Source: an uncultured bacterium (GTDB lineage: Bacteria; Desulfobacterota; Deferrimicrobia; J040). Taken from it: 64,000 bases of DNA. The notes beneath the pieces were generated by a model. That model did not search any database and had not been told where the DNA came from. It saw only the letters and a list, made by a program, of their open reading frames with translations. The DNA lies in assembly GCA_964429585.1 (NCBI GenBank), contig CAYSCN010000008.1, positions 7,530-71,529 of the forward strand. The letters are read 5' to 3'. The position numbers and the translations under genes were made by a program. Below, in pieces: positions 17,945 through 32,277 of this stretch; the first letter of the stretch is position 1; every line of letters starts with the position of its first letter.

Positions 17945-18049
17945 AATTTCCTCCTTCTATCCATGAACATAAATTTCATCATCTAGTAACACTCTGGAAT
18001 CGATATTAGTTCCACAGGAAACACCACAATAGAAACGTGTTTTCTCATT

Positions 18050-19444: not shown

Positions 19445-20575
19445 TTACCCTAAATGTTTGTAAAGTAAAGCTCCTGCCATTTTGAGCAGAAACATCGGAG
19501 TTTTCCTGAAAACCTTCCTGGCCACCAGACCGGCTCTAGGATAATACTCCTTGAAAGATTCTTCCTTGATGTCGAGCTTGTAGTAGTTTATCGATATCTC
19601 TTCTGTCCCCCAGCCCCTTTTAAACTGCCTCAAACCATCATTGTCGAAGTCTGTAGAACCGAAACAGAAAGTCCTGTATCTGTTTTCTATGGACCACTTT
19701 ATGGCTTCCCACATTACCAGGTTGTTGGGACGCAAATGCAGGTAATTTCTATCCGATGCACCATATCGATAAAGCACATTACCTCCAAAATTGTAAAAAA
19801 TACCACCAGCCACGTTCCTCCCATTTATAGAAGCCAGAACCACAAACCCCAATCCTTTTGAAATTATCTGCTCATACTCGCTTAGAATGAATTTCCAGGG
19901 ATAAGGCGGAAGGTTCTGCACGAGCTTCCTTGTCATACAATAAAGTCGATAAAACTCTCTAAGTGAATCCAGACTCCTGTAAATCCTTGCCTCGACTCCT
20001 TCTTTCTCGGCCTTCTTTATGTTTCGTTTCGTGCTGCTTCTGAAATTTTTTAGGACCTCACCCTCATCTCCGTCGAGCGTGAGCACATGCCTGAAGTAGC
20101 GGGCAGAAGGCTCCCCCCAGCCGCCATGCTCGCCAATCATCTTGAAAAGGACGTATTTCCAATTTCTTCTTCTCCCATGCTCGACTATCTCCCTGTAGAG
20201 CTCTTCAAATTCTGAATCATCGTAAAGGAGCGGTTCGCAATAATCTGCGAATGGAAGCGAGACCCCTCTGAGCCCGGTTACTGGACTGTTGACTTCCATT
20301 ACTGGAAAAACGGATACACCTTCATTCGAACTTAACGTGAAATAGACGGGTTCGTAACCGTAAGTCTTCTTGAGGACTTTTACCCAGTTGGTCGAGTGAA
20401 AAATGGTCGCGTTAGGATGAGCCAATACGAACTCATCCCAACCCGGGTATTCAAGTGGGTTTATTATGTGAATCATCGCATCTTCCTTTTGAATGATATT
20501 ACCTGTTGAAGGTCTCCGGAGAAGGAAAGACGGCGCCCCACGGTAAGGCCTTGTATGACGAGCCTTTTGTCTCAT
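19445..20575 (-). CDS. FemAB-like / GNAT-fold aminoacyl-transferase family protein (polysaccharide-locus associated)
   Basis: Likely true start MIHIINPLEYPGWDEF (~20476). Architecture and motifs (FHSTNWVKVL..., two GNAT-like halves) resemble the FemAB-related proteins found in EPS/exosortase-type loci. Confidence 0.65.
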   Translation of the reverse strand: MRQKARHTRPYRGAPSFLLRRPSTGNIIQKEDAMIHIINPLEYPGWDEFVLAHPNATIFHSTNWVKVLKKTYGYEPVYFTLSSNEGVSVFPVMEVNSPVTGLRGVSLPFADYCEPLLYDDSEFEELYREIVEHGRRRNWKYVLFKMIGEHGGWGEPSARYFRHVLTLDGDEGEVLKNFRSSTKRNIKKAEKEGVEARIYRSLDSLREFYRLYCMTRKLVQNLPPYPWKFILSEYEQIISKGLGFVVLASINGRNVAGGIFYNFGGNVLYRYGASDRNYLHLRPNNLVMWEAIKWSIENRYRTFCFGSTDFDNDGLRQFKRGWGTEEISINYYKLDIKEESFKEYYPRAGLVARKVFRKTPMFLLKMAGALLYKHLG

Positions 20576-21825
20576 TCCGACATCAGGCCGTTTCTGGTCA
20601 TGAGCAAAAGAGCTCCTCTTTTGAGTTTCCTAAAAGCCAGGTTTCTGATTTCCTGAAGCACCCCAACGAAGAAAGGCCCCGGGTCGGAGAGGGAAAAAAT
20701 GGCATAAGCCTTTTTTCCTCTTATGCTTCTCAACCACTGAATAAAATTCAATTCTCCCCGCCTCCAGTAATAATACGACGACCTGAGGTCCTGATAAATG
20801 TGTATCCACTTTACGCCGTTGTATTTCTGCTCCAGGTTTTTCGGGAGAGGTAGCCCCGTCAGGTCACAATACATGGAGTAAAGAAATTCGACTCCACTTT
20901 TTTCCGCCGTTGCGGAGCGACCCGTGGGACGCCCTATATTGGGTTCGATGATGTAATACTTGCCCGTCCTTCTGTCGAATTTCATCTCCAAATAACCGAA
21001 ACCTCTTCCATTTATCAACTCGAACAGACGAATAGTTTCTTGCCTGACCACATCGTTTTCACACTCGACTGCAAGACACGCCTGACCCGTCTTCGGTGGC
21101 CACTGCCTGACTTTTTTGCTGACAAAAGTAACAAGGGGGCGGCCTTCCTTGTCGAAATAACAGTTACACGTGTAATGGTCCGTTTCGTCACCTTCAACGT
21201 ACTGCTGCACTATCATTTGCTCCGCGTAAGGACTGTACTCTCGATACAGGTTCAACAATTCATCCGGGCCTTCTACCTTGAAAGCCTTTTGCTCAGTGAA
21301 CGCGCTCCACTCAGGCGTACGATATGAAGGCTTCAGAAAACATGGATACGAAATATTCCGGGAAATTCTCTCTACATCCTTTATACTCTCGACAAAATGC
21401 GTTTCCGGTATGGGAAGCCCTTTCTCTGCCGCAAACCTGTAAAATCGCACCTTGTCTATCATGGTCACTACCATCTCATGTTCGGGCAGAAGGACGTGAT
21501 AATACTCTTCGAGGCGAGCGCGGTGTCGAGACACTATGAGCACATTCAGGTCATGGCATGGATACAAGACACCTTTCACATCCAGCCCCTTCCCTATCTC
21601 AATGAGAGTGTCTATCAGAGAATCGTCCTCAGTATTCGCGACAACGATTTTCTCGCATACCCGGGTCGTGCAATTGTAATGTCCCCGCACGTTGGAGATT
21701 GCAATCACGGGCACACCACGAGATGCCAGAATGCGAGCCGCCTGGAGGCATTGCATGAACTCGAGGCCGATCAACACAGCCCTGGGTCTGTCCGGCGGAT
21801 GTTTTTTCTTTTTGAGGATATACAT
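20572..21825 (-). CDS. ATP-grasp family ligase (paralog 3 of 3)
   Basis: YPCFLKPSYR, MIVQQYVEGDE, FGYLEMKFDRRTGKYYIIEPNIGRP ATP-grasp motifs. Stop overlaps the FemAB-like gene start. Confidence 0.7.
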   Translation of the reverse strand: MYILKKKKHPPDRPRAVLIGLEFMQCLQAARILASRGVPVIAISNVRGHYNCTTRVCEKIVVANTEDDSLIDTLIEIGKGLDVKGVLYPCHDLNVLIVSRHRARLEEYYHVLLPEHEMVVTMIDKVRFYRFAAEKGLPIPETHFVESIKDVERISRNISYPCFLKPSYRTPEWSAFTEQKAFKVEGPDELLNLYREYSPYAEQMIVQQYVEGDETDHYTCNCYFDKEGRPLVTFVSKKVRQWPPKTGQACLAVECENDVVRQETIRLFELINGRGFGYLEMKFDRRTGKYYIIEPNIGRPTGRSATAEKSGVEFLYSMYCDLTGLPLPKNLEQKYNGVKWIHIYQDLRSSYYYWRRGELNFIQWLRSIRGKKAYAIFSLSDPGPFFVGVLQEIRNLAFRKLKRGALLLMTRNGLMSE

Positions 21826-21854
21826 GATGTAAAGGGAAAAAGGATGAAAAGTCG

Positions 21855-22967
21855 TCAGACAAATGCCAATAATAATCTTTTCACCGCATCAGCGGTGTAT
21901 TCAATTTGCTTGACCGAAATCTCCGGGTATATCGGCAGCGAAACGAACTCTTCCGCGCTGCTTTCCGCAACGGGGAAACTGCCCTTTTCATATCCGAGAA
22001 ACCCGTAAGCATCCTGAAGGTGAATTGGAACGGGATAGTGAATCCCACAATATATCCCTTTCTCCCGAAGAGCTTCTATCAACTGATCCCTCTTCTTCAC
22101 TCTGATGACGTAGAGGTGATATACATGAGTTCCGTAGTCTGCCTCAACTGGCGTGACGATTCCCTCCGCATCACCCAGCAAGTCGTTGTAAAGATCGGCG
22201 ACCACCCTCCGTGATTTGTTGTACTCGTCGAGGTACTTCAGTTTGACTGAAAGAACTGCCGCCTGAATCCCATCCATTCTGCCGTTCCACCCTATGAAGT
22301 CGTGTTTGTATTTACGCGACTGGCCGTGGTCCCTCAGCATCCGAATCTTTCTATCTATCTCCGGATTGTCGGTCACAACGGCACCCGCTTCGCCGTAAGC
22401 ACCCAGATTTTTCCCGGGATAAAAACTGAAACATCCGACATCTCCTATCGAGCCCGCCTTCCTACCCTTGTAAACGGCACCGTGTGATTGGGCGGCATCC
22501 TCGATCACGAATAGACCATATTTCTTCGCTATCTCCATAACGAGGTCCATATCCGCCATCTGACCAAAAAGGTGAACCGGTATTATAGCCTTAGTCCGTT
22601 CGGTGATCATGGCTTCAATCTGTTGCGGATCGATGTTGTAGGTGTCCTCCAGAACATCCACGAATACAGGCTTTGCGCCACAAAACGAAATCGCCTCCGC
22701 CGTGGCAATAAAAGTATTCGGCACTGTTATGACTTCATCCCCTGGCCCAACCCCTATGGCGAGAAGAGCGAGCCACAGAGCTTCCGTCCCGCTGCCGACC
22801 CCAATGGCATATTTGGTTCCACAATACGCCGCAAACTCTTCCTCGAATTTCTCGACAAAAGGCCCTCCTGCAAATGCTGTCTTCTCGAAAACACCTTCGA
22901 GAGCTTCGTTGATTTCTTCTCTGATAGATTCGTACTGTGTCTTTAGATCTAAAAATGGCACTTTCAT
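21855..22967 (-). CDS. DegT/DnrJ/EryC1/StrS-family PLP-dependent sugar aminotransferase (WbpE-like)
   Basis: MKVPFLDLKTQYESIREEI...; conserved PLP-binding region; family-typical length (370 aa). Confidence 0.9.
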   Translation of the reverse strand: MKVPFLDLKTQYESIREEINEALEGVFEKTAFAGGPFVEKFEEEFAAYCGTKYAIGVGSGTEALWLALLAIGVGPGDEVITVPNTFIATAEAISFCGAKPVFVDVLEDTYNIDPQQIEAMITERTKAIIPVHLFGQMADMDLVMEIAKKYGLFVIEDAAQSHGAVYKGRKAGSIGDVGCFSFYPGKNLGAYGEAGAVVTDNPEIDRKIRMLRDHGQSRKYKHDFIGWNGRMDGIQAAVLSVKLKYLDEYNKSRRVVADLYNDLLGDAEGIVTPVEADYGTHVYHLYVIRVKKRDQLIEALREKGIYCGIHYPVPIHLQDAYGFLGYEKGSFPVAESSAEEFVSLPIYPEISVKQIEYTADAVKRLLLAFV

Positions 22968-23521
22968 TTTTTCACCTCGTCTAGTTTTCTGAGTACTCTG
23001 GCCGGATTTCCCACGACAACAGTTCGGGGTGGCACGTCTCTCGTAACCACGCTGCCGGCTCCCACAATCGCGCCCTCACCTATTGTCACCCCGGCCAGTA
23101 TGGTTGCGCTCGAACCGATGGAAGCGCCCTTTTTCACGACGGTAGGGATACACACCCAATCTTCCTCGGTTTGGAGCTTTCCATCCTCTGTCGTGGCCCT
23201 CGGATAGAGATCGTTTATGAAAGTGACGTTGTGACCAACAAATACACCGTCTTCGATCTTTACGCCCTCGCATATGAACGTGTGGCTCGAGATCTTGCAG
23301 TTTTTCCCGATGCATGCGTTTTTCTGTATTTCCACGAAGGTGCCGATCTTGGTGTTGTCGCCTATCTCACACCCATATAGATTGACAAATGCGTAAATTT
23401 TCACGTTTTCTCCGAGTTTTACATCGGGCGCAATACGGCACGTGTTCATAACATCCTGAGCCATGGGTTCCCCCTGTTTCTGTTGTTTTTGTGATATCAA
23501 ACTTAGATATTCATCTGACAA
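22964..23521 (-). CDS. Hexapeptide-repeat (left-handed beta-helix) sugar N-acetyltransferase (WbpD/PglD-like)
   Basis: Tandem [LIV]G hexapeptide repeats (IGDNTKIGTFVEI..IGKNCKIS..VFVGHNVTF..IGSSATILAGVTIGEGAIVGAGSVV). Start probably at MAQDV. Overlaps both neighbouring genes. Confidence 0.85.
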   Translation of the reverse strand: MSDEYLSLISQKQQKQGEPMAQDVMNTCRIAPDVKLGENVKIYAFVNLYGCEIGDNTKIGTFVEIQKNACIGKNCKISSHTFICEGVKIEDGVFVGHNVTFINDLYPRATTEDGKLQTEEDWVCIPTVVKKGASIGSSATILAGVTIGEGAIVGAGSVVTRDVPPRTVVVGNPARVLRKLDEVKK

Positions 23522-24554
23522 AAGCCAATTTGTTGGGAAGGAGTTCTACTCTAGAGCCGCCGCTTTTCAGAGATATGGTTGCCGCTTCCAGAATTCTAAC
23601 AACCTCCATTCCCTCATAACCGCTTGTAATTGGCCTCTGTCTCTTTTCGATACACTCCAGAAAGTGTCCTGTCTCGACCTTCAAGGGCTCGATCTGTTTT
23701 ACGTAGGGAATGTACATGTCGCCGTAATGGTAAGAATAATGAAATTCAGCGAAAGTATCGTAGTGCGGCGGTCTCTCGACCCTTTTGTCGTAAATTTTTA
23801 TCTTTTCGAGAGGCTCCGTATCATTGTAAACTAGCATTCTTTTACTTCCCACGAAGACCATCTCCCTGACCTTATTCGGATCAAGCCAGCTGCTGTGCAC
23901 CGTTGCGAATCCTCCATTCGGGAAGTCGATCGTCATGTTGGTGACATCTTCGATTCCCTTCGTAATGTGTGCCTTCCCCTGACAGTTGACCGTTTTGGGC
24001 GGGATGTTGAGAATGTACAGAATTATTGAAATGCAATGCGGCGCGAGGTCCCACGTGACGTTGATGTCCTCCTGGAAAAGACCGAGATTGAGCCTCCTGG
24101 AGCTGACATAGTAGATCTCCCCCAGGTCTCCAGATTCGACTATCTCCTTGATTCTCCTGACAGGAGCAGAATATATGAATGTGTGCCCCACCATCAAAAC
24201 GAGGTTTCTGTCCTCGGCAACCTCAACCATCTCCTCGCACTCTTTCACCGAGCGGGCCATCGGTTTTTCCACGAAGGTATGTTTTCCGGCGTGGAGGGCC
24301 TTCATGGCAATCTCATGATGGGTCCTGACAGGCGTTGCAATGGCCACCGCATCCACTTCCGGATCTCCAGTAACGTCATCGACGTTTTTCGTGGTCTTCA
24401 CTTCGGGGTAAAGTTTCTTGATATAAGCAAGCCTCTCCTCGCTCAAATCACAGACCCACTTGACTTCACAGTTGTCATGGAACCTGAAATTCCTCGTAAG
24501 ATTGGGACCCCAGTAACCGCACCCGATGACGCCTACTTTAATAATTTTCGACAT
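23511..24554 (-). CDS. Gfo/Idh/MocA-family NAD-dependent sugar-nucleotide oxidoreductase (WbpB-like)
   Basis: N-terminal Rossmann KVGVIGCGYWGPNLTRNF; Gfo/Idh/MocA fold. Confidence 0.85.
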   Translation of the reverse strand: MSKIIKVGVIGCGYWGPNLTRNFRFHDNCEVKWVCDLSEERLAYIKKLYPEVKTTKNVDDVTGDPEVDAVAIATPVRTHHEIAMKALHAGKHTFVEKPMARSVKECEEMVEVAEDRNLVLMVGHTFIYSAPVRRIKEIVESGDLGEIYYVSSRRLNLGLFQEDINVTWDLAPHCISIILYILNIPPKTVNCQGKAHITKGIEDVTNMTIDFPNGGFATVHSSWLDPNKVREMVFVGSKRMLVYNDTEPLEKIKIYDKRVERPPHYDTFAEFHYSYHYGDMYIPYVKQIEPLKVETGHFLECIEKRQRPITSGYEGMEVVRILEAATISLKSGGSRVELLPNKLAFVR

Positions 24555-25662
24555 ATTCCCTCCTTCTCCTGGATCGAATCTTCCCCGTGGCTTGTTCCAT
24601 CAATACAGGAAATGTTTTTAGCATTATGAAAAAATCCCTGACCATCGATATTTTCGCGCCATATCTTATGTCCAGCCTTATCATTTCTTTGAATGTGGTT
24701 TTGTTTTTCCCGTTCACCTGCCACAACCCGGTCAGCCCTGGAACCATCTCCACCCTTTTCTTCTGCCACTGGTCGAACTCCTCGAACTCGTAGGGAATGC
24801 ACGGCCTCGGTCCCACAAGGCTCATCTCCCCTCTGAGCACATTTATCAACTGAGGCAACTCGTCTATACCCAGCTTTCTCACGATTCCGCACAGCGGAAT
24901 CACCCTTTCATCCTTTTTCTCGTCCAGCTTTTCCATCGGTTTTTCGCTCTTTATCAATGTTCTCAGATACTCTTTGTGAACTTCCTGAGGAGCACCGATG
25001 TGCATGGTTCTGAGCTTGTACATGGTGAAAATTTCTCCCATGTATCCCACCCTTTCCTGCTTAAAAATCACAGGCCCCGGTGAGACCATGCGCAGATACA
25101 GGGCGTATAACAGGAAAAAGGGAAACAAGACTGACATCACAACGAGGGAAACAAAAACATCTATTGCCCTTTTCCAGAAAGGCAACGGAGACGATGTGAA
25201 CCTGGAGAAAACCCCTCCACTTTTTCTTTTCAGAGATGGAAGGTGAAATGGCTTTCTCCTGTCCCTCATGTCAGTGGTGTTCCACCATCTATCTGGATAT
25301 GAGTAAAGCCGATATCCGATCCTTATGTCCTTCTGCGAACAAAACTCCGTTATGCTGCTCAACAGGTTCCAGGCTCCATCCACCGGTGTGTGAGGAAGTA
25401 GGAGCCCTATTATGGTGCCCTCTTCCATGAACCCAAGTTCGTCTGTAACCCTCATCCTTTCCCTCAAATACTTGATTAGTTCGGACGCTTTTTTCTCCTC
25501 CTGGCCATCCTCTGGGATTATTTCGATCAGCGAAAAAGGCAACCCCGTCCTATCCGATCTCTCTCTCTCCTTCAACAGTGCCTTATGGAACTCTTCCTCG
25601 CTCAGGATTCCGTCAACGCACTTTCCATTCTTTTTTGTGACCTCGATTATAGAAGAAAACAC
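24538..25662 (-). CDS. Polyprenyl-phosphate sugar-1-phosphate transferase (bacterial sugar transferase, WbaP/PglC/EpsL-like) with N-terminal cytoplasmic degenerate GGDEF-like domain
   Basis: C-terminal Bac_transf motifs: SPGPVIFKQERVGYMGEIFTMYKLRTM, DELPQLINVLRGEMSLVGPRP, GLTGLWQVNG. Single TM (IDVFVSLVVMSVLFPFFLLYALYL). N-terminal ~150 aa align to a GGDEF fold with an RxxD I-site-like motif (RVTD) but EEGTI in place of GG(D/E)EF. GTG start with GAGGAGG RBS. Confidence 0.8.
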   Translation of the reverse strand: MFSSIIEVTKKNGKCVDGILSEEEFHKALLKERERSDRTGLPFSLIEIIPEDGQEEKKASELIKYLRERMRVTDELGFMEEGTIIGLLLPHTPVDGAWNLLSSITEFCSQKDIRIGYRLYSYPDRWWNTTDMRDRRKPFHLPSLKRKSGGVFSRFTSSPLPFWKRAIDVFVSLVVMSVLFPFFLLYALYLRMVSPGPVIFKQERVGYMGEIFTMYKLRTMHIGAPQEVHKEYLRTLIKSEKPMEKLDEKKDERVIPLCGIVRKLGIDELPQLINVLRGEMSLVGPRPCIPYEFEEFDQWQKKRVEMVPGLTGLWQVNGKNKTTFKEMIRLDIRYGAKISMVRDFFIMLKTFPVLMEQATGKIRSRRRREYVENY

Positions 25663-25739
25663 TGAACCACCTCCTCAAAAGGAATTGCTGAGCTGATTTC
25701 TTATATTTTTTTTATGAAAAAATCCTATTTATCTTTCAA

Positions 25740-25754
25740 ACAATTTACATGCCA
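25740..25754 (-). promoter_or_regulatory. Second copy of the 15-mer; sigma54-type element TGGCATGTAAATTGT (GG-N10-GT) ~75 nt upstream of the priming transferase gene
   Basis: ACAATTTACATGCCA on + strand is identical to 5585-5599 apart from one flanking base. Located in the 296-bp intergenic region between the OMP and PGT genes. Confidence 0.4.
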
Positions 25755-25958
25755 CAAGGTATTACGTCTCTTTACGGATAACCTTCTGTTTTTTTGTCGT
25801 TCTCGGGTTAGGTTCGATGAGCTCTTGGAATAGACGGTAATTTATAGAATTATCTAATTAAAATGGGGAAAAATTTGCTCAGCAGAAATAATTATTTTAC
25901 TTTTATTGGAACTGATAAAGGCCTCGTTGCCAGTTGGTGGGTCTCGATTTCCACAGCA

Positions 25959-27125
25959 TCAATATGTCTTCATTAGCACAAACCCAATGGCCACGCTGTT
26001 GATAGTTATGTCGCTCCCTATGTCCGTTTTAGCGTCCTGCTCCGATCTGACTCCTGAGATGAAAACTGATAGGGTCTTCATGAGCATGTATTCAACTCTG
26101 ACGTTGAAATACGTCAAAAGCAGGTCCTCGGTACTGTCCAGCGACCTGTGCTTCCTCAAACTGCCTCTCATGAGAAAGGATACCTTCCTGGAAATCCACT
26201 TGTAAGTGGCTGCAAACCCATCCGTCTTTGTTGTCCTCCCGAAGATTCCTCCCCCAGAGAAATAACGCCACGCTGAAACTCTGAGAAAACTCTTTTCTGA
26301 AGGTGTGATTTCCGTGGCAATACTCCCTGAAAACTCCGTGGTCGACTTGTTGCTCTCCTCAAGCAATCTCGTAACTCCAGTGGTCAGTATATAGGTAACC
26401 GAAGGTGAATACATATAATTCAAGAATAATGAGGCCGTGTAAGTGTCGGTGTCGATTCCATCGTCGTAATCGGTTGTGGAGTACCCGAACGACAGTCCTT
26501 CCTTGAACCTTTCCGTTCCGGAATACGTAACCCTGCCAGAAAAACTTTGCGTCTTTGAATCCGATACCCCTACATCTTCACTGTATTGAAGTGTCGTATA
26601 CATCCCCGTTGCAAACAGTGTCAATCTCGGTGACATTTTGAAAGTAATCGACGACTCACCAGAAAGAGTGTAGTGGTCGCTCCGCCTGGTGATTTCGGTC
26701 TGACTCCCCGTGGCGCTCTCCAGGGGAACTGTTTCGGAAATCCCAAGGCCAGGTGTGAAAACGTAGGTCGTCTTGAACGAAGCGCCGAGTCTGTCCGTGA
26801 AATCCCTGTCATATCTAACGGATACGTCACTTGAATTGGCTACTCCGTTTAGATGTTCATTTTTCGTGTAGTATTCCCCCGTTACCGAACCCACCAAATA
26901 TAGAGCGTCTCTTTTTCCTGTAACGTCCACTCGTAGTACGGGCTTGACCACTGTAAACACGTCTTCTTTTCCCGGATTTCTTTCGCTTTCTATGTTGTCC
27001 GACCAGTTCAAACTCACCGAAATCGATGGTGTTATCTTCGAGTCATATGAAACAGCCGAACCCACGTTGAAGAAAACGAGAAAAAACACCCCAACCAAAC
27101 AAAAAGTTACTTTTTTTCTGACCAA
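25959..27125 (-). CDS. Outer-membrane beta-barrel protein of the polysaccharide locus
   Basis: Signal peptide. Alternating hydrophobic beta-strand pattern throughout. C-terminal ...GFVLMKTY ending in aromatic residue (OMP signature). Confidence 0.6.
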   Translation of the reverse strand: MVRKKVTFCLVGVFFLVFFNVGSAVSYDSKITPSISVSLNWSDNIESERNPGKEDVFTVVKPVLRVDVTGKRDALYLVGSVTGEYYTKNEHLNGVANSSDVSVRYDRDFTDRLGASFKTTYVFTPGLGISETVPLESATGSQTEITRRSDHYTLSGESSITFKMSPRLTLFATGMYTTLQYSEDVGVSDSKTQSFSGRVTYSGTERFKEGLSFGYSTTDYDDGIDTDTYTASLFLNYMYSPSVTYILTTGVTRLLEESNKSTTEFSGSIATEITPSEKSFLRVSAWRYFSGGGIFGRTTKTDGFAATYKWISRKVSFLMRGSLRKHRSLDSTEDLLLTYFNVRVEYMLMKTLSVFISGVRSEQDAKTDIGSDITINSVAIGFVLMKTY

Positions 27126-27138
27126 TTTGGAATCCTTT

Positions 27139-27828
27139 TCACGGAATTATTATTATATCGCCCGGCTTGAGGTAGACGTTCTGACTCAACTCACGAGACT
27201 TTACAATTTTGTAGTAATCGATATCCATTTTCTTTTGATACGATCCATTCGACCGGATTAGAACTATTTTTGACGGAGACGCAAACACCGTGAACCCCCC
27301 CGCCATAGAAATCGCCTGAAGGAGGGAAATTTTTTCTTTAAGAATATACATCCCAGGCTTGGCCACCTCACCCATGATGTAAAACTTAGGATAGTTGACC
27401 TCCTTGACCACCACAGTGACAACGGGTTCAATGATGAACTCCTTCAATCTTACTTCTATCAACTTTCGAAGCTCCTCGGTTGTAAATCCGGATGCGGTTA
27501 CGTCCTGAATGAGCGGAAGGGAAATCTTACCATCAGGCCTGACTGTAACATCCTGAGTCAACTCTTCATTGTTCCAGACAGAAATGTGAAGTACGTCGCC
27601 AGGGCTGATTCTGTAAGGTTCGGTGTCATCGGAATTACCAGCACCGCTTCTTTCAATCATAGCACGTTTCCCTTTTTCCTTAGCAGAAACCGGCTCTTTT
27701 TGTATGGGCGTTGTCACACGACAGGCGGCCAGCACCATAAACCCCGCCACGATGAACACGATTTTCATAAAAAATTTCCCTTTGTAGCTTTTCATCCTTA
27801 CTCCCTTCGCCCCCGACCGTGGAAACAA
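27139..27828 (-). CDS. Polysaccharide export protein, small Wza/EpsA-like periplasmic lipoprotein (Poly_export + SLBB)
   Basis: Lipobox ...FMVLAAC. YRISPGDVLHISVW Poly_export motif. PGDIIIIP C-terminal SLBB-like. Likely start MKIVFIVAGF (~27768). Confidence 0.8.
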   Translation of the reverse strand: MFPRSGAKGVRMKSYKGKFFMKIVFIVAGFMVLAACRVTTPIQKEPVSAKEKGKRAMIERSGAGNSDDTEPYRISPGDVLHISVWNNEELTQDVTVRPDGKISLPLIQDVTASGFTTEELRKLIEVRLKEFIIEPVVTVVVKEVNYPKFYIMGEVAKPGMYILKEKISLLQAISMAGGFTVFASPSKIVLIRSNGSYQKKMDIDYYKIVKSRELSQNVYLKPGDIIIIP

Positions 27829-28317
27829 TCAGAGGTAATATTTTGGAATGTTCAGCTTGATGTTGGCGGAAACGCTATTCAGAAGAAGCGTTACCCTCTC
27901 ATCTCCAGAGAGATACCCTTCAAAAACGACCTCTAGATCCTTGAACATCCCTCTTTTTATTGCGATCCTCTCATTTCTGGTGAACCTTCGTTTCTTGTTA
28001 ACCATGTGTATGAACCCGTCTCTTTCCCTGTCTCTTATATGCTTTACTATCTCAGGTTCCACCTCGACAGGTCCCGAGCCGAAGTCTATGAACCCACCAA
28101 CTCCCCTTGTGTACTTGATTTTGTGATAATTTTTCTCAAGTTCTGTCTCTACAAAAATGTATCTCGGAAACAACGGTTCAATAACCGTGAAAACGGCGTT
28201 TCTACGTATCGTGGTTTTCTTCAAAAGCGGGAGATAACAATTAATCTTTCCCTCAGTGAGGTTCTTCACAACTTTCAGCTCTTCCTTGGGCTTTGTGAAA
28301 ACAAGATAATAGGGCAT
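27829..28317 (-). CDS. NusG-paralog, RfaH/UpxY-like operon-specific transcription antiterminator
   Basis: NGN domain YYLVFTKPKEELKVVKNLTEGKINCYLPLL...VIEPLFPRYIFVE closely parallels RfaH (WYLLYC...VNCLAPMI...SEPLFPNYLFVE). C-terminal KOW-like region. GGAGGA RBS. First gene of the long minus-strand operon. Confidence 0.8.
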   Translation of the reverse strand: MPYYLVFTKPKEELKVVKNLTEGKINCYLPLLKKTTIRRNAVFTVIEPLFPRYIFVETELEKNYHKIKYTRGVGGFIDFGSGPVEVEPEIVKHIRDRERDGFIHMVNKKRRFTRNERIAIKRGMFKDLEVVFEGYLSGDERVTLLLNSVSANIKLNIPKYYL

Positions 28318-28334
28318 GTGCTTCCTCCAATTTA

Positions 28335-28346
28335 TAGGCTACCGCC
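28335..28346 (-). promoter_or_regulatory. ops-like element GGCGGTAGCCTA (E. coli ops = GGCGGTAGCGTG) in the mRNA-sense strand 25 nt upstream of the RfaH-like gene start; preceded by hairpin GGGGAA-N7-TTCCCC (28348-28366)
   Basis: Reverse complement of + 28335-28346 (taggctaccgcc). 10/12 identity to ops including the invariant GGCGGTAG core and T11. Non-template orientation is correct for RfaH-type recruitment. Confidence 0.35.
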
Positions 28347-28413
28347 ACGGGGAAATTTATATTCCCCTTTAAAAACAAATGGTTAGCAACTCTCAGTTTG
28401 TTTCGAGGACCGC

Positions 28414-29904
28414 TCAGGCGTCCTCGACAATACCGCACTCTTTCATCTTGTAAAGGAGTGCTTTGTAAGAAATATCCAGAATCTTCGCCGCTTTTCTTCT
28501 GTTCCAGCGCACGTGGTTCAAAACCTTTTCGATAACCAGTCGCTCTGCTCTCCTGGAGGCAGAACGTGATATTTCCTTCAAAGGAACTTTGCCCGAAGCG
28601 AGATCGATGTTCTTTATCAGGAAATCTATGTCCTGAAAACTCCCACCGTTCCCCGGCCTCGAAATTTCCCTTTCAATTCTCACAGCTGCGCTTCCACCGG
28701 CAGATCCTGCACCCCTCGCTGAAGCGTAAAACTTCTCTTCGGTGCTTTTTTTCATAAGCTCCGTGAAAGCAACGGACTCAGAACCCATAATGACTATGCG
28801 CTTAACGTAATTTTCGAGCTCTCTGATATTCCCGGGCCACGAATATTCCAAGAAGCTGTTGATGAGAGAATCGGATATAACTTGTCCCTCCTTGTTGTAC
28901 ATGAAAGAGTATTTCTTCAGGAAATAATCGACAAGCAGAGGAATGTCTTCCTTCCTCTCTCTCAGAGGTGGAAGGTGTATGTTGACGACATTCAGGCGGA
29001 AATAGAGATCTTCTCTGAAATTCCCTTCTCTTACCGCTTCTTGTAAGTCTCTGTTTGTCGCGCTCACGATACGAACGTCCACTTTGACGTCTCTTTCGCT
29101 ACCCACAGGCGAAAACACCCCGTCCTGAACGACCTGGAGCAATTTCGACTGTATTCTGATAGGCATCTCGGATATCTCATCGAGGAATATAGTCCCCATT
29201 GAGGCAATCTCGAACTTCCCTCTCTTTTTTTTGTAAGCGCTCGTGAACGCGCCTTTTTCGTACCCGAAAAGCTCACTTTCCAGAAGATTATAAGGTATTG
29301 CAGCACAATTGACTTTAACGAATTTTTTGTCGGATCTCCTGGACAACTTGTGGATAGCCCTCGCGACAAGGTCCTTACCAGTTCCACTCTCTCCGGTAAT
29401 CAGAACCGTTATGTCGGTACCGGCCACCTGATCCACTATCGCCTTTATCTTCTTCATTGACTCATAGCGAGAAAAAACGAGGTTGTATTCGTTTTCCGGG
29501 TCCGTCAATGTTTTCAACTCTTCCAGTTCTCTCTTGTCTCCCACCACGTTTATCGCCCTGTGTATCCTGACCAGTAGCTCATCGTATTCGAACGGCTTTT
29601 TCAGGTAATCTGTGGCCCCAAGCTTCATCGCTCTCACAGCCTCTTCGATTTCAGATTGAGCGGAAATCAAAACTATCGGGACGTATCTGTTCCCATTCAA
29701 GAAAATAGGTATCAGGTCGATGCCATTCCCGTCAGGAAGAAAAATATCGAGTATCACGATATCAGGCTTTTCCTCGAAGAAAGTCGTTTCTGCCTCTAAC
29801 TTGGTCGTCGAAACAACCACGTTCATTCCATGCTGAAGAAGAAATCTCTTCGTCATGTTGAGGAATGAAGGGTCATCATCTATCAAAAGAACTTTGTTCC
29901 CCAA
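28414..29904 (-). CDS. sigma54-dependent response regulator (NtrC family: REC + AAA+ sigma54-activation + Fis-type HTH), PrsR-like
   Basis: REC domain (LLIDDD...ILDIFLPDGNG). AAA+ with GESGTGKD, ESELFGYEKGAFTSA (GAFTGA-type) and arginine-finger region. C-terminal HTH ...NRRKAAKILDISYKALLYKMKECGI. TTG start with AGGAGGGAG RBS. Confidence 0.9.
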   Translation of the reverse strand: MGNKVLLIDDDPSFLNMTKRFLLQHGMNVVVSTTKLEAETTFFEEKPDIVILDIFLPDGNGIDLIPIFLNGNRYVPIVLISAQSEIEEAVRAMKLGATDYLKKPFEYDELLVRIHRAINVVGDKRELEELKTLTDPENEYNLVFSRYESMKKIKAIVDQVAGTDITVLITGESGTGKDLVARAIHKLSRRSDKKFVKVNCAAIPYNLLESELFGYEKGAFTSAYKKKRGKFEIASMGTIFLDEISEMPIRIQSKLLQVVQDGVFSPVGSERDVKVDVRIVSATNRDLQEAVREGNFREDLYFRLNVVNIHLPPLRERKEDIPLLVDYFLKKYSFMYNKEGQVISDSLINSFLEYSWPGNIRELENYVKRIVIMGSESVAFTELMKKSTEEKFYASARGAGSAGGSAAVRIEREISRPGNGGSFQDIDFLIKNIDLASGKVPLKEISRSASRRAERLVIEKVLNHVRWNRRKAAKILDISYKALLYKMKECGIVEDA

Positions 29905-30135
29905 AAATTCTCCCTCCTTTGTCGTGTGATTATAATAGTATCAATTCCTGTGCCAAGAAACGAAAAACATCACCCATATTTTAAAAATTTTTATCTTACT
30001 GTAATCAAAGGGGAAAAAAATTTATCCAAATAGCAATATTAATTCACAATGATATAGAAATAATTACATTGATAATATCTTACACGTATTGGGTAATATT
30101 TTACTCACTATTGCTTTTTCGTCAGATTTATTCGG

Positions 30136-31281
30136 TCACGGAACGGGAATGGTGAAAGACACAGTCGTCCCTTTTCCGGGCTCGCTTTCTATCGCGAGCT
30201 CGCCGTTTTGAACTTCCACCAGTTTCTTGCATATGGAAAGCCCCAGCCCGACAGTTCCTATCCCCTCCCTCTTGAATATCATCGGGTCACTCGTGAGAAT
30301 CTCTCTTATTTTTTCCTTTGGCATACCACATCCCTTGTCTGAAACCGAAATCAACGCTTTTCCATTTTCAGCATGAGAAACAGACACCACTATTTCCGAA
30401 CCCGCAGGTGAAAATTTTATTGAATTCACCATCAGGTTGTCGAGAATCTGCCCTACTTTCAGTCTATCCGCGTAGACGAGCACTTTGTCCGAAACATTCG
30501 TCCTCCTGATTTTTATGTTCTTCATCTCCACGTAAGGAGCCAGAAAGTCTATGCATTCGTCTATCAGCTCTCCTATGTCGAATGTCGTGGAGTTGAGATT
30601 TATCGTCCCCTGTTCCACGGCATGATAGTCCAGGAAAGACTCAATCATCACAAGTGCTCTCTTTAGACACCTTCTTCCTTCCACAAATATGCTCATCTCG
30701 TCTTCTGTAAGCTTGTGGCTGCATGATTCCCCTATCATCTGATGATACCCGTTCAGAACCGTCAAAAGGGTTTTCAGGTCATGGCTTGCCGTGGAAATCA
30801 TGAAAGACTTGAATGACGATAGTTTCTCCACCTCTCGGTTCTTTTCCTCCAGCTCCTTGACGAGCTTCTTAAGCTTTCTCTCGTTTTCCTTTCTCTGTCT
30901 CTCGGCTCGTAGCTTCTCATAGGCTCTTCTAAGAGAATGCAGAATGATCTCTGGCTCAAACGGCTTCATGATGAAGTCATACGCTCCGAGCTTGAGGGCT
31001 CTAACTGCCGACTCGAGTGTCGCATAACCTGTGATGACTATAACAGGAATATCGGGTCTGGTCCTGCCAACCTTCCCCAGAAGATCGAGACCGGACTCAC
31101 CGTTGAAGTTTATATCAGTTATCATGATAATACTTTTTCTTTTTTTCTTTATGAAATCGTAAGCATCTCCCGGATTTATGAATTTTTCCACATTAAACCC
31201 TTTTGACGCCACGATTTTCGCCAGCGACTCGAGAAACTTCTCATCGTCCTCAACTATCACGACAGTCGTCCTTCTCATCAA
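30136..31281 (-). CDS. Hybrid histidine kinase (N-terminal REC + HisKA + HATPase_c), cytoplasmic
   Basis: REC (VVIVEDDE...IIMITDINFNGESG). H-box SHDLKTLL. N/G boxes (NLMVNSIKFS, DKGCGMPKEKI, GTVGLGLSICKKLV). No TM. Confidence 0.8.
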   Translation of the reverse strand: MMRRTTVVIVEDDEKFLESLAKIVASKGFNVEKFINPGDAYDFIKKKRKSIIMITDINFNGESGLDLLGKVGRTRPDIPVIVITGYATLESAVRALKLGAYDFIMKPFEPEIILHSLRRAYEKLRAERQRKENERKLKKLVKELEEKNREVEKLSSFKSFMISTASHDLKTLLTVLNGYHQMIGESCSHKLTEDEMSIFVEGRRCLKRALVMIESFLDYHAVEQGTINLNSTTFDIGELIDECIDFLAPYVEMKNIKIRRTNVSDKVLVYADRLKVGQILDNLMVNSIKFSPAGSEIVVSVSHAENGKALISVSDKGCGMPKEKIREILTSDPMIFKREGIGTVGLGLSICKKLVEVQNGELAIESEPGKGTTVSFTIPVP

Positions 31282-31994
31282 CTCTCCCCCTCAACAGGTA
31301 TGATTACCCTGAAAATCGCCCCTTCATTCCCTTCTTCGTAAGCTATTTCTCCGCCTGCAGCGTCGACTATGTTCCGGCATATCCACAGCCCGAACCCTCT
31401 TCCCTCCCCTTTTTTGGAGGGCACAGGTTCCTCGAAGAGCCTGCCTCTCAGGTCACTGCTCAAGCCGCCACCTGAATCTTCAACTTCAATTCGGGCCAAT
31501 TTTCCGTCCGACTTCGCCCTCACCTCTATCCAGCCTCCGCTCGAAGTTGCATCACAGGCATTTGAAACAAGATTCGACAAAACCTGTCTGAGAGAAGAGC
31601 GGGAAATAGAAAGCGGTGTTCTGCCATTCCCCACAGCCACACCAAAAGCAACCCCTTTCGACTCCGCTATCTTTCTGTAGATGTTTTCCATGAACCGTGC
31701 CTCTTCCTCCAGAATGGCTATTTCGCGTCCATTCCAGTTGAACCCGCCACCGAATGAAAACTCATCTATTGTCTCCTCAATTCTCTTGACTTCCTCATAA
31801 ATGGCTCTCAAATTTTCAAGGGCAACATCCGTTTTCCTCCGTCCTCCTCCATACTTCTTCATTTCTTCGGTAACTATGTAAATGTAATTTTTAATTGTCC
31901 CAAGAGGCGTTCTTATCTCGTGTAACAACGACCTGTAATATTTCTCCCTTTCACGCAATATATAGAGCTCCTCTATTAGCTTCTCAACTTTCAT
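31278..31994 (-). CDS. Soluble histidine kinase (HisKA + HATPase_c), translationally coupled to the hybrid kinase
   Basis: H-box LHEIRTPLGTIKNY. ATPase boxes (LSNLVSNACDAT, DSGGGLS, GRGFGLWICRNIV). ATGA overlap with the downstream gene. Confidence 0.75.
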   Translation of the reverse strand: MKVEKLIEELYILREREKYYRSLLHEIRTPLGTIKNYIYIVTEEMKKYGGGRRKTDVALENLRAIYEEVKRIEETIDEFSFGGGFNWNGREIAILEEEARFMENIYRKIAESKGVAFGVAVGNGRTPLSISRSSLRQVLSNLVSNACDATSSGGWIEVRAKSDGKLARIEVEDSGGGLSSDLRGRLFEEPVPSKKGEGRGFGLWICRNIVDAAGGEIAYEEGNEGAIFRVIIPVEGES

Positions 31995-32200: not shown

Positions 32201-32277
32201 TGGTGGCGGTGCAGGGATTCGAACCCCGGACACAGCGGATATGAGCCGCTTGCTCTAACCAACTGAGCTACACCGCC
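32201..32277 (-). tRNA. tRNA-Met: tRNA-Met (anticodon CAU), 77 nt including genomically encoded CCA
   Basis: Cloverleaf fits by eye: acceptor GGCGGTG/CACCGCC, D-arm GCTC-AGTTGGTTA-GAGC, anticodon arm AGCGG-CTCATAT-CCGCT, T-arm CGGGG-TTCGAAT-CCCTG, then ACCA. Could alternatively be tRNA-Ile2 (lysidine) or initiator; anticodon stem lacks the 3 G-C initiator signature. Confidence 0.85.

What the first reader, a model, noticed from the sequence alone, without database searches (positions are those of the whole stretch)
27829..28366. RfaH-like NusG paralog preceded in its own leader by an ops-like GGCGGTAG element and a hairpin
The first gene of the long operon encodes a 162-aa NusG paralog. Its NGN domain closely resembles RfaH (INCYLPLL / IEPLFPRYIFVE). 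Twenty-five nucleotides upstream of its start codon, the mRNA-sense strand reads GGCGGTAGCCTA. The E. coli RfaH recruitment site ops is GGCGGTAGCGTG. The 8-nt core is identical and T11 is conserved; it lies in the non-template strand as required. It is immediately preceded by a GGGGAA-ATTTATA-TTCCCC hairpin. This suggests self-recruiting, operon-specific antitermination. That is functionally like Bacteroides UpxY, but using an ops-like sequence, covering ~28 kb of downstream genes. An 8-mer is expected by chance roughly twice in 128 kb of two-strand sequence. The evidence is therefore positional rather than statistical.
Basis: partly seen in the sequence, partly recalled or inferred. Interest (0 to 1): 0.65.

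Follow-up and report, generated by a model that had tools for sequence, protein, structure and literature searches.

The report
RfaH-like gene behind its own ops site
A polysaccharide gene cluster carries a specialised transcription elongation factor (an RfaH relative) just downstream of a conserved hairpin-plus-"ops" loading signal; this is a divergent example, from an unusual bacterial lineage, of a control system already known from E. coli and from IncX plasmids.

Summary
Window 27829..28317 (-) encodes a 162-aa NusG paralog whose best family match is RfaH, though below NCBI's cutoff. Its leader holds a 6-bp hairpin (28367..28349), a GT spacer and GGCGGTAGCCTA (28346..28335), which matches the E. 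coli ops GGCGGTAGCGTG at 10 of 12 positions.

The block TGGCGGTAGC is invariant in all eight distinct orthologous loci (51-69% protein identity). It also lies upstream of 30-34% identical homologs. The hairpin keeps its position, ending 2-3 nt before ops, but changes its stem sequence by compensatory substitutions.

The same hairpin-then-ops layout is the Rfam JUMPstart motif of the E. coli waaQ leader, although the Rfam model does not score this copy. In 73 other RfaH-homolog loci the element lies just downstream of rfaH, ahead of polysaccharide genes.

Most likely it is an RfaH-type loading and pause site. RNA polymerase that has passed it would be made termination-resistant for the PEP-CTERM-type exopolysaccharide genes downstream.

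The self-leader layout has an experimental precedent in PrfaH of IncX3 plasmids (2025). I therefore class this as a new member of a known kind.

Still open:
- the promoter;
- the fold state of the C-terminal domain;
- how far along the 28 kb the effect reaches, because internal sigma-54-like promoters exist.

The parts
27829..28317 (-). RfaH-family NusG paralog gene (162 aa)
   Evidence: Pfam NusG NGN domain, E 8.9e-18. NCBIfam RfaH TIGR01955 scores 116.3 bits against a cutoff of 144.5; UpxY 64, NusG 39, LoaP 38. The best solved-structure relative is E. coli RfaH at E 2.8e-13, against NusG at 1.6e-4. The AF2 NGN domain superposes on the RfaH N-terminal domain of 5ond at 1.9 A over 94 columns.
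28335..28346 (-). ops-like 12-mer GGCGGTAGCCTA on the sense (non-template) strand; predicted pause at T11 = 28336
   Evidence: Sequence. GGCGGTAGC is invariant in 11 of the 12 aligned elements; L102 has C at position 6. TGGCGGTAGC is invariant in 8 clade upstream regions. It matches the E. coli ops GGCGGTAGCGTG of the waaQ leader at 10 of 12 positions.
28349..28367 (-). Hairpin GGGGAA-TATAAAT-TTCCCC, ending 2 nt before ops
   Evidence: MFE -9.8 kcal/mol; only 0.3% of random 26-mers from the window fold as well. In 12 loci a 4-7 bp hairpin ends 2-3 nt before ops with different stem sequences. All 5 modelled pairs show changes on both sides, and 0 of 500 shuffles reach the observed percentage paired.
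28324..28328 (-). Shine-Dalgarno GGAGG, 6 nt before the ATG
   Evidence: Read directly.
28368..28385 (-). Conserved AT-rich box TAACCATTTGTTTTTAAA directly 5' of the hairpin; function unknown. Its reverse complement fits an IHF-like pattern, WA(T/A)CAA-N4-TTA.
   Evidence: Conserved columns TAA..ATTG.T.T in the alignment of 8 clade upstream regions. The IHF reading is my own pattern comparison and was not tested.
28414..29904 (-). Sigma-54-dependent response regulator (PEP-CTERM PrsR-like), same strand, 96 nt upstream; conserved neighbour and possible co-transcript
   Evidence: Pfam Response_reg, Sigma54_activat and HTH_8. NCBIfam PEP_resp_reg scores 386.6 bits, below its cutoff. The synteny regulator > paralog > Poly_export > BBP2 holds in L002, L003, L169, L171 and L174.
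29940..29955 (-). Sigma-54-type promoter candidate TGGCACAGGAATTGAT ahead of the regulator gene; a possible source of the transcripts that cross ops
   Evidence: One mismatch to TGGCAC-N5-TTGCW. It sits 36 nt before the TTG start at 29904. The window-wide count of such matches is not above chance (25 found against 20 expected), so this is a candidate only.
306..27828 (-). Downstream same-strand exopolysaccharide genes, the presumed target of the modified polymerase. They include the export protein (27139..27828), an outer-membrane beta-barrel (25959..27125) and the priming sugar transferase (24538..25662).
   Evidence: ORF map, all on the minus strand with short gaps. Pfam Poly_export/SLBB, BBP2_2 and Bac_transf. 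NCBIfam pepcterm_export, pepcterm_hypo_1 and EPS_sugtrans, all below their cutoffs.
25739..25754 (-). Internal sigma-54-like promoter candidate GTGGCATGTAAATTGT in the 297-nt gap before the sugar transferase gene. The same 15-mer recurs at 5585..5599. Polymerases that start here would not have crossed ops.

Best explanation
The element is a JUMPstart-like loading and pause site for the RfaH-family protein encoded immediately downstream.

Proposed sequence of events:
1. RNA polymerase arrives from upstream. The source is either the sigma-54-type promoter ahead of the response-regulator gene or an unidentified promoter in the 96-nt spacer.
2. It transcribes the hairpin and then the 12-mer GGCGGTAGCCTA.
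3. As at E. coli ops, G1G2...T11 act as a consensus pause. In the paused bubble the non-template strand folds into a tiny hairpin (G2:C9 and C3:G8, here also G1:C10) that exposes G5 and T6.
4. The paralog's NGN domain reads these bases and binds the polymerase, replacing housekeeping NusG.
5. The polymerase becomes resistant to pausing and to Rho or NusG-dependent termination across the polysaccharide genes downstream.
6. The nascent RNA hairpin's 3' end lies 13 nt behind the pause-site 3' end. It probably limits backtracking or stabilises the pause while the factor loads.

Because the factor's gene is the first one after the site, it is made whenever the promoter fires. It then acts on later polymerases at the same locus, which amounts to a built-in, locus-specific processivity switch.

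Shown here: protein family, motif identity, conservation, hairpin covariation, and genetic linkage of RfaH homologs to such elements. Inferred: pausing, non-template-strand recognition, antitermination, and the role of the hairpin.
For: 1. The protein is closest to RfaH among NusG paralogs.

2. TGGCGGTAGC is invariant across eight orthologous leaders whose flanks have diverged. GGCGGTAGC is also found upstream of 30-34% identical homologs in L087, L088 and L158.

3. The central CGGTAG is conserved. A plain elemental pause (GG...YG) would not need it, so the conservation points to specific reading.

4. The hairpin position is fixed while the stems differ: GGGGAA/TTCCCC, GGGAAAT/ATTTCCC, CCGAAT/ATTCGG, CCGATT/AATCGG, CTGAA/TTCAG, CCGG/CCGG. 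All 5 of 5 pairs show double changes.

5. The same layout (5-bp hairpin, 1 nt, GGCGGTAGCGTG) is the Rfam JUMPstart match in the E. coli waaQ leader (55.2 bits).

6. The model built from these elements finds hairpin plus GGCGGTAGCGTG on the gene strand, 40-1850 nt downstream of rfaH homologs, in about 55 further loci and ahead of polysaccharide genes. A direct pattern scan counts 73 such loci. RfaH homologs and this element are therefore genetically linked across lineages.

7. Variants at position 6 go with changes in the protein. The T6>C loci have S or Q at the H20 position, whereas their T6 sisters have H. The T6>G loci have K10>R.

8. Experimental precedent: PrfaH binds the non-template strand of an ops-like site at -42..-25 in its own 5'UTR (PMC11880322).
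Against: - H20, R23 and Q24, which help form the T6 pocket of E. coli RfaH (PMC5995543), are N, E and G here. R23 is replaced by an acidic residue or by Gly across the clade (E, E, E, D, E, G, D, G, G).
- The protein scores below NCBI's RfaH cutoff. The element gets no Rfam JUMPstart hit even at E<=10.
- AF2 does not predict the autoinhibited alpha-hairpin C-terminal domain. It gives beta strands at pLDDT 58-77 with a deep alignment. With the clade-only alignment it gives pLDDT below 50 and one helix.
- The window copy has A at position 12 instead of the G (+1) of the pause consensus.
- No promoter was located, so transcription across the element is assumed rather than shown.
- Internal sigma-54-like promoters could express distal genes independently of ops.
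Confidence: 0.75

Rival explanations
1. The signal is read mainly as RNA. The paralog, or another factor, binds the nascent hairpin plus the GGCGGUAG tail. This would resemble LoaP, which binds a leader RNA hairpin, or the RirA RNA that derives from the E. coli waaQ leader.
For: - Compensatory changes preserve a single-stranded structure.
- The alpha-1 residues that form the DNA T6 pocket in RfaH are not conserved.
- The E. coli waaQ leader carrying JUMPstart is annotated as the small RNA RirA.
- LoaP binding to an RNA hairpin is recalled from my own knowledge and was not checked here.
Against: - The invariant part is the ops core. In E. coli and in PrfaH this is read on non-template DNA (PMC5995543, PMC11880322).
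- K10 and R73 are kept.
- The L170 variant keeps ops but lacks the hairpin.
- Loci with T6>G, and L062, lack a convincing hairpin.
- The protein scores only 38 bits against LoaP.
Confidence: 0.12
2. The paralog is a constitutively active, ops-independent 'monomorphic' RfaH that is recruited in cis, as proposed for cis-encoded homologs in the 2026 preprint PMC13015549. On this view the conserved sequence serves only as a polymerase pause or regulatory site and is not read by the protein.
For: - AF2 with the deep alignment gives a NusG-like beta C-terminal domain.
- The gene is next to its presumed target.
- Several ops-contact residues are missing.
- The preprint reports that monomorphic homologs lack some ops-binding residues and sit beside long operons.
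Against: - A pause signal needs only G1G2 and T11G12. Here C3-G8 is invariant while positions 10 and 12 vary.
- A nascent protein cannot use a site that its own polymerase has already passed, so keeping ops upstream of the gene implies action on later polymerases.
- E48, F130, R138 and L142, residues important for RfaH autoinhibition, are conserved as E47, F132, R141 and L145.
- Confidence in the C-terminal domain is low in both AF2 runs.
Confidence: 0.08
3. The conserved block is a double-stranded DNA control site: an operator, or part of a promoter for the paralog gene. On this view it is not a transcribed signal.
For: - It lies in a short intergenic region where no promoter could be placed.
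- TATAAAT follows the motif in the window.
- A conserved AT-rich box with an IHF-like reverse complement lies just upstream.
- The hairpin is also an inverted repeat.
Against: - A -10 element at TATAAAT would start the mRNA inside or after the Shine-Dalgarno sequence, and the TATAAAT is not conserved in orthologs.
- The motif does not fit sigma-54 spacing (my reading).
- The arms of the inverted repeat change sequence freely, which does not suit a protein operator.
- The element is nearly always on the sense strand and 5' of polysaccharide genes, whether it lies before or after rfaH. This matches E. coli ops, which is known to be transcribed.
Confidence: 0.04
4. The 8-mer lies next to a NusG paralog gene by chance.
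For: Two copies occur in the window against 0.87 expected, and 21 of 100 shuffles have at least 2.
Against: The motif is conserved in every orthologous locus and in distant homologs, with a hairpin that covaries.
Confidence: 0.01

Closest known systems
E. coli RfaH with the ops / JUMPstart element (Rfam RF01707), for example the waaQ leader
   Same: - The protein's nearest family by NCBIfam and by the Protein Data Bank.
- The 8-nt core GGCGGTAG and T11 are identical.
- A short hairpin lies immediately 5' of ops.
- The element sits upstream of long polysaccharide gene clusters.
- K10, T72, R73 and the autoinhibition residues E48, F130, R138 and L142 are kept.
   Different: [quoted passage not shown] Here the gene follows the site in the same cluster.
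- The spacer is 2-3 nt instead of 1.
- There is no GGUAGC repeat in the loop.
- The Rfam model does not score it.
- H20, R23 and Q24 are replaced.
- A good Shine-Dalgarno sequence is present.
- The nearest relatives come from MAGs labelled Deltaproteobacteria and Ca. Deferrimicrobia, not Gammaproteobacteria.
PrfaH of IncX3 conjugative plasmids (Commun Biol 2025, PMC11880322; PDB 9ik0)
   Same: An RfaH paralog is encoded as the first gene of the long operon it activates. Its loading site lies in its own 5'UTR a few tens of nt before the ATG (-42..-25 there; -29..-18 here, and about -40 to -50 in relatives). It is read on the non-template strand as a small stem-loop.
   Different: - PrfaH's site is a different sequence, and its key residues (T11, T72, R12, F17, Y76) differ.
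- Its target is a virB conjugation operon on plasmids of Enterobacteriaceae.
- No upstream JUMPstart-type hairpin is described in the passages I read.
- There was no sequence-level hit between the two proteins at E<=0.01. The structural match is weak (Foldseek E 1.4e-4, 21% identity).
UpxY of Bacteroides (NCBIfam NF033644)
   Same: A NusG paralog encoded at the head of a polysaccharide operon, acting on that operon through its leader. This rests on my own knowledge and on PMC7593976.
   Different: The protein scores 64 bits against a cutoff of 100, well below its RfaH score. No ops sequence is known for UpxY, whose recruitment signal is unknown (PMC7593976).
LoaP of Firmicutes (NCBIfam NF033641)
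   Same: A specialised NusG paralog beside its target cluster, with a leader hairpin implicated in its action (my own knowledge).
   Different: The protein scores 38 bits against a cutoff of 125. The signal here contains the canonical ops core.

Membership tests
RfaH (NCBIfam TIGR01955 / NF006534) | Score at or above the curated equivalog cutoff | tested here: not met
   116.3 bits against 144.5, and 91.7 against 124. RfaH is still the best-scoring NusG-type family.
RfaH | NGN domain closer to RfaH than to housekeeping NusG | tested here: met
   PDB RfaH at E 2.8e-13 against NusG at 1.6e-4. TIGR00922 nusG scores 39 bits against a cutoff of 135.7. The NGN model superposes on 5ond at 1.9 A.
RfaH | ops-contact residues K10, R16, H20, R23, R73 (PMC5995543) | tested here: inconclusive
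   K9, K15, N19, E22 and R71. Two of the three residues whose Ala substitutions are severe (K10, R73) are kept. N at position 20 is the commonest residue in homologs linked to canonical ops.
RfaH | A cognate ops element on the non-template strand in the leader of the target operon | tested here: met
   GGCGGTAGCCTA at 28346..28335, conserved in orthologs.
RfaH | Autoinhibited alpha-helical C-terminal domain that refolds to a beta-barrel | tested here: inconclusive
   AF2 with the deep alignment gives beta strands at pLDDT 58-77. With the clade alignment it gives pLDDT below 50 and a helix at 138-151. The equivalents of E48, F130, R138 and L142 are conserved.
RfaH | Pause at ops, persistent binding to the polymerase, suppression of polarity | not testable with these tools
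   Needs in vitro transcription and genetics.
JUMPstart RNA motif (Rfam RF01707) | Match to the covariance model at the gathering score (35 bits) | tested here: not met
   No hit at E<=10 in 28300..28420 or 27500..29000. The positive control, E. coli waaQ, scores 55.2 bits.
JUMPstart RNA motif | Short stem-loop immediately 5' of the ops 12-mer, in 5' regions of polysaccharide gene clusters | tested here: met
   A 6-bp stem ends 2 nt before ops. The arrangement holds in 12 loci with covariation. The downstream genes are Poly_export, BBP2 and Bac_transf.
UpxY family (NF033644) | Score at or above the cutoff (100 bits) | tested here: not met
   64.3 bits.
LoaP (NF033641) | Score at or above the cutoff (125 bits) | tested here: not met
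   38.4 bits.
PrfaH-type self-leader arrangement (PMC11880322) | Paralog gene co-transcribed with its target operon, with the loading site in its own 5'UTR | tested here: inconclusive
   The site lies 18-29 nt before the ATG, and the downstream genes are on the same strand with a 0-nt gap to the next ORF. Co-transcription and the transcription start site were not determined.
PEP-CTERM / XrtA exopolysaccharide locus (context) | NCBIfam equivalog hits for the export protein, the outer-membrane protein and the PrsR-type regulator at their cutoffs | tested here: not met
   Best hits are pepcterm_export at 161.8 against 180, pepcterm_hypo_1 at 37.5 against 90.85, and PEP_resp_reg at 386.6 against 502.6. 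The locus is related to these families but below every cutoff.

The most novel reading that the evidence does not exclude
ops reading may be ancestral and widespread among cis-linked RfaH homologs, rather than a late acquisition tied to autoinhibition and trans action.

On this reading the clade uses a bipartite signal, a nascent RNA hairpin plus the non-template ops. A remodelled alpha-1 surface (E22/G23 in place of R23/Q24) on a protein that may not be autoinhibited would read that signal.

The natural T6>C and T6>G variants, with their matching residue changes, would then be a ready-made specificity code for programmable, locus-specific antitermination.
Probability: 0.15. Interest if true: 0.65.

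Novelty: new member of a known kind. Interest (0 to 1): 0.4.

Why it matters
The work extends the RfaH/ops/JUMPstart system well outside Gammaproteobacteria, which is the only group listed for the motif (PMC2864571). The element turns up in lineages labelled Deltaproteobacteria, Ca. Deferrimicrobia and Verrucomicrobia.

It also shows that RfaH homologs encoded beside or inside their target polysaccharide clusters usually still carry a canonical hairpin-plus-ops element. This bears on current models. Those models treat the recruitment of cis-encoded paralogs as unknown (PMC7593976) or as ops-independent (PMC13015549).

The position-6 variants offer natural material for studying the specificity of recognition.

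In practice, such elements mark the true 5' boundary of processivity-controlled exopolysaccharide operons in uncultured bacteria.

Tried and rejected
- **Rfam scans of the leader.** Only noise hits appeared, with no JUMPstart match. The E. coli control worked.
- **Sigma-70 promoter and intrinsic-terminator scan of 27700..28700.** Nothing was found at the element. The hairpin is followed by GUGGCGG rather than a U-tract, so it is not an intrinsic terminator.
- **Reading TGGCGG...as a sigma-54 -24/-12 promoter.** Rejected, because no GC lies at the correct distance in the window, L002 or L003 (my reading).
- **Reading the TATAAAT after ops as a -10 element.** Rejected. It would remove the Shine-Dalgarno sequence from the mRNA, and it is not conserved.
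- **The second GGCGGTAG at 18548..18541.** It is intragenic, the composite model does not match it, and it is consistent with chance.
- **AF2 as a test of alpha versus beta C-terminal domain.** The two runs disagree and both have low confidence, so the result is unusable as a verdict.
- **Locating the promoter from the alignment of eight upstream regions.** Two conserved boxes appear (TTAcAGTaAAA and TAA..ATTGaTaT), but neither fits a sigma-70 or sigma-54 consensus convincingly.
- **Cluster look-up to name the source organism.** It returned no names, and the window's own genome is absent from the species-representative collection.
Full report
**What is in the sequence**

Read on the minus strand, the region between the stop of the upstream gene (TGA 28416..28414) and the ATG (28317) is:

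GCGGTCCTCGAAACAAACTGAGAGTTGCTAACCATTTGTTTTTAAA-GGGGAA-TATAAAT-TTCCCC-GT-GGCGGTAGCCTA-TAAATT-GGAGG-AAGCAC-ATG.

- The hairpin occupies 28367..28349.
- The 12-mer occupies 28346..28335.
- The motif starts 29 nt before the ATG and ends 18 nt before it.

GGCGGTAG occurs twice in the 64 kb against 0.87 expected. The second copy lies inside ORF 18050..19294.

**The protein**

- Pfam finds a NusG NGN domain.
- Among NCBI's curated families the best match is RfaH: TIGR01955 at 116 bits, below its 144.5 cutoff. It is well ahead of UpxY (64), NusG (39) and LoaP (38).
- Among solved structures the best sequence relative is E. coli RfaH (E 2.8e-13), against NusG at 1.6e-4.
- An AF2 model has a confident NGN domain (pLDDT about 90). 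It superposes on the RfaH N-terminal domain bound to ops DNA (5ond) at 1.9 A over 94 columns.

The ops-contacting side chains defined by Zuber et al. 2018 are K10, H20, R23 and R73, with R16 also important (PMC5995543). Of these:

| E. coli RfaH | This protein |
|---|---|
| K10 | K9 (kept) |
| T72 / R73 | T70 / R71 (kept) |
| R16 | K15 |
| H20 | N19 |
| R23 | E22 |
| Q24 | G23 |

The residues important for RfaH autoinhibition (E48, F130, R138, L142) are conserved as E47, F132, R141 and L145.

AF2 does not settle the fold of the C-terminal domain. A 120-sequence alignment gives beta strands at pLDDT 58-77. A clade-only alignment gives pLDDT below 50 with a single helix at 138-151.

**Conservation of the element**

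Close relatives of the protein are rare. Two searches of the 5.8-billion-protein index gave nine clade members at 51-100% identity.

Every clade member whose contig could be read keeps the synteny sigma-54 response regulator > paralog > Poly_export > beta-barrel. The exceptions are L006 and L009, treated separately below. L168 and L005 lack a called or annotated regulator gene but keep the rest of the arrangement. Every one of these members also has the same leader architecture:

| Locus | 5' arm - loop - 3' arm | Spacer | 12-mer |
|---|---|---|---|
| L002 | GGGAAAT-AGAG-ATTTCCC | GT | GGCGGTAGCCTG |
| L003 | CCGAAT-AAGT-ATTCGG | ACT | GGCGGTAGCCTG |
| L005 | CCGATT-TAAA-AATCGG | GAT | GGCGGTAGCCTG |
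| L168 | CTGAA-TTCAGT-TTCAG | GGT | GGCGGTAGCGTG |
| L174 | CTGAA-TTTAGG-TTCAG | GGT | GGCGGTAGCGTG |
| L169 | CCGA-N9-TCGG | GAT | GGCGGTAGCTTA |
| L171 | CCGAA-TTATAT-TTCGG | GGT | GGCGGTAGCGCG |

In a MAFFT alignment of the eight upstream regions, TGGCGGTAGC is the only invariant block.

More distant homologs (30-34% identity; L087, L088, L158) carry CCGG-loop-CCGG, then 2-3 nt, then GGCGGTAGC(C/G)(T/C)G at 47-73 nt before their start codons.

**The hairpin**

- Each hairpin is short. In 12 loci a 4-7 bp stem ends 2-3 nt before the motif.
- Folding energies beat random 26-mers from the same loci. Individual fractions range from 0.003 to 0.28, and the Fisher combined p over 16 loci is 2e-5. 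The loci are not fully independent.
- On an ungapped model-based alignment all five modelled pairs show changes on both sides. None of 500 shuffles reaches the observed percentage paired, and 1 of 500 reaches the covariation score.
- That alignment was fitted to the structure, so it leans towards it.

**Relation to JUMPstart**

I fetched the E. coli K-12 waaQ leader. It reads ...CAGGTAGCTGTTGAGCCTG-G-GGCGGTAGCGTG and matches Rfam JUMPstart (RF01707) at 55.2 bits. The match has a 5-bp stem, a 1-nt spacer and then ops.

Weinberg et al. 2010 described this conserved stem-loop and listed the motif for Gammaproteobacteria only (PMC2864571).

The window element has the same layout, but the Rfam model does not detect it even at E<=10.

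**Wider distribution**

A covariance model built from 12 of the elements hits the window once (35.6 bits, E 2.5e-8; next best 11.3 bits).

I then searched the roughly 160 loci fetched with the protein from genome and metagenome collections. The model finds hairpin plus GGCGGTAGCGTG on the gene's strand in about 55 more loci. Nearly all of these lie 40-1850 nt downstream of the RfaH homolog.

A direct pattern scan gives:

| Position of the element | Loci |
|---|---|
| Downstream of the homolog, within 2 kb | 73 |
| Upstream, within 160 nt | 20 |
| None in the sequence available | 76 |

Where I checked, the genes after the element are polysaccharide genes.

- L077: epimerase/dehydratase and a DegT aminotransferase.
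- L041: manC, with a MarR-type gene between rfaH and the element.
- L102, L039 and L062, which are 'upstream' cases: sugar transferase, oxidoreductase, DegT and GT2.

Genetic linkage of RfaH homologs to a hairpin-ops-led polysaccharide operon is therefore common. The window's clade is the subset in which the gene sits behind the site rather than in front of it.

**Variants at position 6**

Three groups of loci carry a changed base at position 6 of the motif, at the same distance from the gene.

- L006 and L009 (the latter labelled Ca. Deferrimicrobia) have GGCGGGAGCGTA.
- L039 and L062 (Verrucomicrobia) have GGCGGCAGCTTG.
- L102 and L141 have GGCGGCAGCCTA.

In the alignment against E. coli RfaH, the T6>C loci have S or Q at the H20 position, whereas their T6 sister loci (L087, L088, L158) have H. 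The T6>G loci have R at the K10 position.

The number of independent events is small, at two or three. The pattern is what direct reading of base 6 by the protein would predict.

Across homologs that sit next to a canonical GGCGGTAGCGTG, Asn is the commonest residue at position 20 and position 73 varies (L, F, T, R). The E. coli contact set is therefore not a strict requirement for an ops-linked homolog.

**Mechanism**

The best-supported reading is an RfaH-type loading site. In E. coli, ops is a consensus pause whose non-template strand forms a small hairpin exposing G5 and T6 to the NGN domain (PMC5995543).

- All of G1, G2, C3, G4, G5, T6, A7, G8, C9 and T11 are present here.
- C10 would add a G1:C10 pair to the DNA hairpin (-2.4 against -0.9 kcal/mol). 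Position 10 varies among relatives, so this is probably incidental.
- The window copy has A rather than G at position 12, the +1 of the pause consensus.
- The RNA hairpin's 3' end lies 13 nt behind U11 (28349 against 28336), and 12-14 nt across the family. That is close to where pause hairpins act and where nascent structure blocks backtracking. This role is my inference, and the function of the hairpin in JUMPstart is not established.
- The paralog gene lies downstream of the site. A nascent protein therefore cannot use the site on its own polymerase, so it must act on later polymerases.

The design ties factor supply to promoter activity at the locus.

**Where transcription starts**

This is unresolved. 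No sigma-70-like or sigma-54-like promoter fits the 96-nt spacer.

A good sigma-54-type candidate (TGGCAC-AGGAA-TTGA) lies 36 nt before the response-regulator start (29955..29940). The regulator and the paralog may therefore be co-transcribed.

Two further candidates share GTGGCATGTAAATTG.

- One lies at 25754..25739, in the 297-nt gap before the sugar transferase gene.
- The other lies at 5599..5584, before an ATG at 5566.

The window-wide count of such matches is not above chance (25 against 20 expected), so each of these is only a candidate. If they are real, the 28 kb is not one simple transcription unit, and only polymerases that crossed 28346..28335 would carry the factor.

**Comparison with what is known**

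- Wang et al. 2020 reported that most RfaH clusters other than the E. coli type lie beside envelope genes. They stated that the recruitment mode of cis-encoded paralogs is unknown (PMC7593976).
- A 2026 preprint argues that cis-located homologs are monomorphic, ops-independent and lack some ops-binding residues (PMC13015549).
- A 2025 paper showed experimentally that PrfaH of IncX3 plasmids binds the non-template strand of an ops-like site at -42..-25 in its own 5'UTR. The gene is co-transcribed with the virB operon it activates (PMC11880322).

The self-leader arrangement is thus already known, and so are the hairpin-ops unit and the protein family. What is new here:

- the combination of a canonical ops core and a JUMPstart-type hairpin ahead of a chromosomal, cis-encoded homolog;
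- the PEP-CTERM-like exopolysaccharide and sigma-54 regulator context;
- the lineage, whose nearest relatives are labelled Deltaproteobacteria and Ca. Deferrimicrobia;
- the survey result that ops linkage is the rule among cis-located homologs.

**Verdict**

It is a divergent new member of a known system rather than a new kind of system. Interest is moderate.

Noticed in passing
window 29940..29955 (-), 25739..25754 (-), 5584..5599 (-), 45826..45841 (-): Sigma-54-type promoter candidates. TGGCACAGGAATTGAT lies before the response-regulator gene. An identical GTGGCATGTAAATTG occurs twice inside the polysaccharide cluster. TGGCACGGGGATTGTA lies in the 45785-46082 gap. The cluster may therefore be several sigma-54-driven units, which would fit the adjacent PrsR-like activator.
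   Followed up: partly
window 5566..5627 (-): The listed ORF 4368..5627 starts at a TTG that would overlap the sigma-54-like promoter at 5599..5584. An ATG at 5566, preceded by GGAGAAAGG, looks like the real start.
   Followed up: no
window 18541..18548 (-): A second GGCGGTAG lies on the sense strand inside ORF 18050..19294, directly preceded by GGGA-N8-TCCC. The composite model does not match it and it is probably a chance match. Its conservation in orthologs was not checked.
   Followed up: partly
window 28368..28385 (-), and the same position in L002, L003, L005, L168, L169, L171, L174: A conserved AT-rich box (TAA..ATTG(A/T)T.T) lies just 5' of the hairpin. Its reverse complement fits WA(T/A)CAA-N4-TTA, which is IHF-like. 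A second conserved box, TTAcAGTaAAA, follows the regulator's stop codon. The function of both is unknown.
   Followed up: partly
L001 (JGI 3300023442 contig, identical protein): The same locus from another metagenome has GGCGGTAGCTTA, so C10 is T there. This is natural polymorphism at a position of ops that also varies between species.
   Followed up: no
L170 614..641, compared with L171-L173: One contig encoding the identical protein P0009 has the regulator gene's 3' end joined directly to GGCGGTAGCGCG, without the AT box or the hairpin. It is either a natural deletion variant or an assembly artefact.
   Followed up: no
L006 3062..3553 and 3832..4287; also L009: The Deferrimicrobia-type locus carries two NusG-domain genes in tandem. 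It has a near-perfect sigma-54 promoter (TTGGCACAATAATTGT) about 270 nt upstream and the variant site GGCGGGAGCGTA without a convincing hairpin.
   Followed up: partly
L041, L074, L142, L147 and about 25 other loci: In many proteobacterial metagenome loci the hairpin-ops element lies about 780 nt downstream of rfaH, with a MarR/wHTH gene in between (L041). This recalls the 'CL4 plus HTH regulator' association of Wang et al. 2020. In others, such as L077, L053 and L086, it lies only 40-90 nt after rfaH.
   Followed up: partly
L039, L062, L102/L141 (T6>C); L006/L009 (T6>G): Natural variants at ops position 6 go with residue changes at the RfaH H20 or K10 positions. This may be co-evolution of the factor and its site.
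   Followed up: partly
window 30136..31994 (-) and 32201..32277 (-): Two sensor kinase / hybrid kinase genes lie upstream of the regulator, an arrangement also seen in L003, L169 and L171. A tRNA-Met gene lies beyond them.
   Followed up: no
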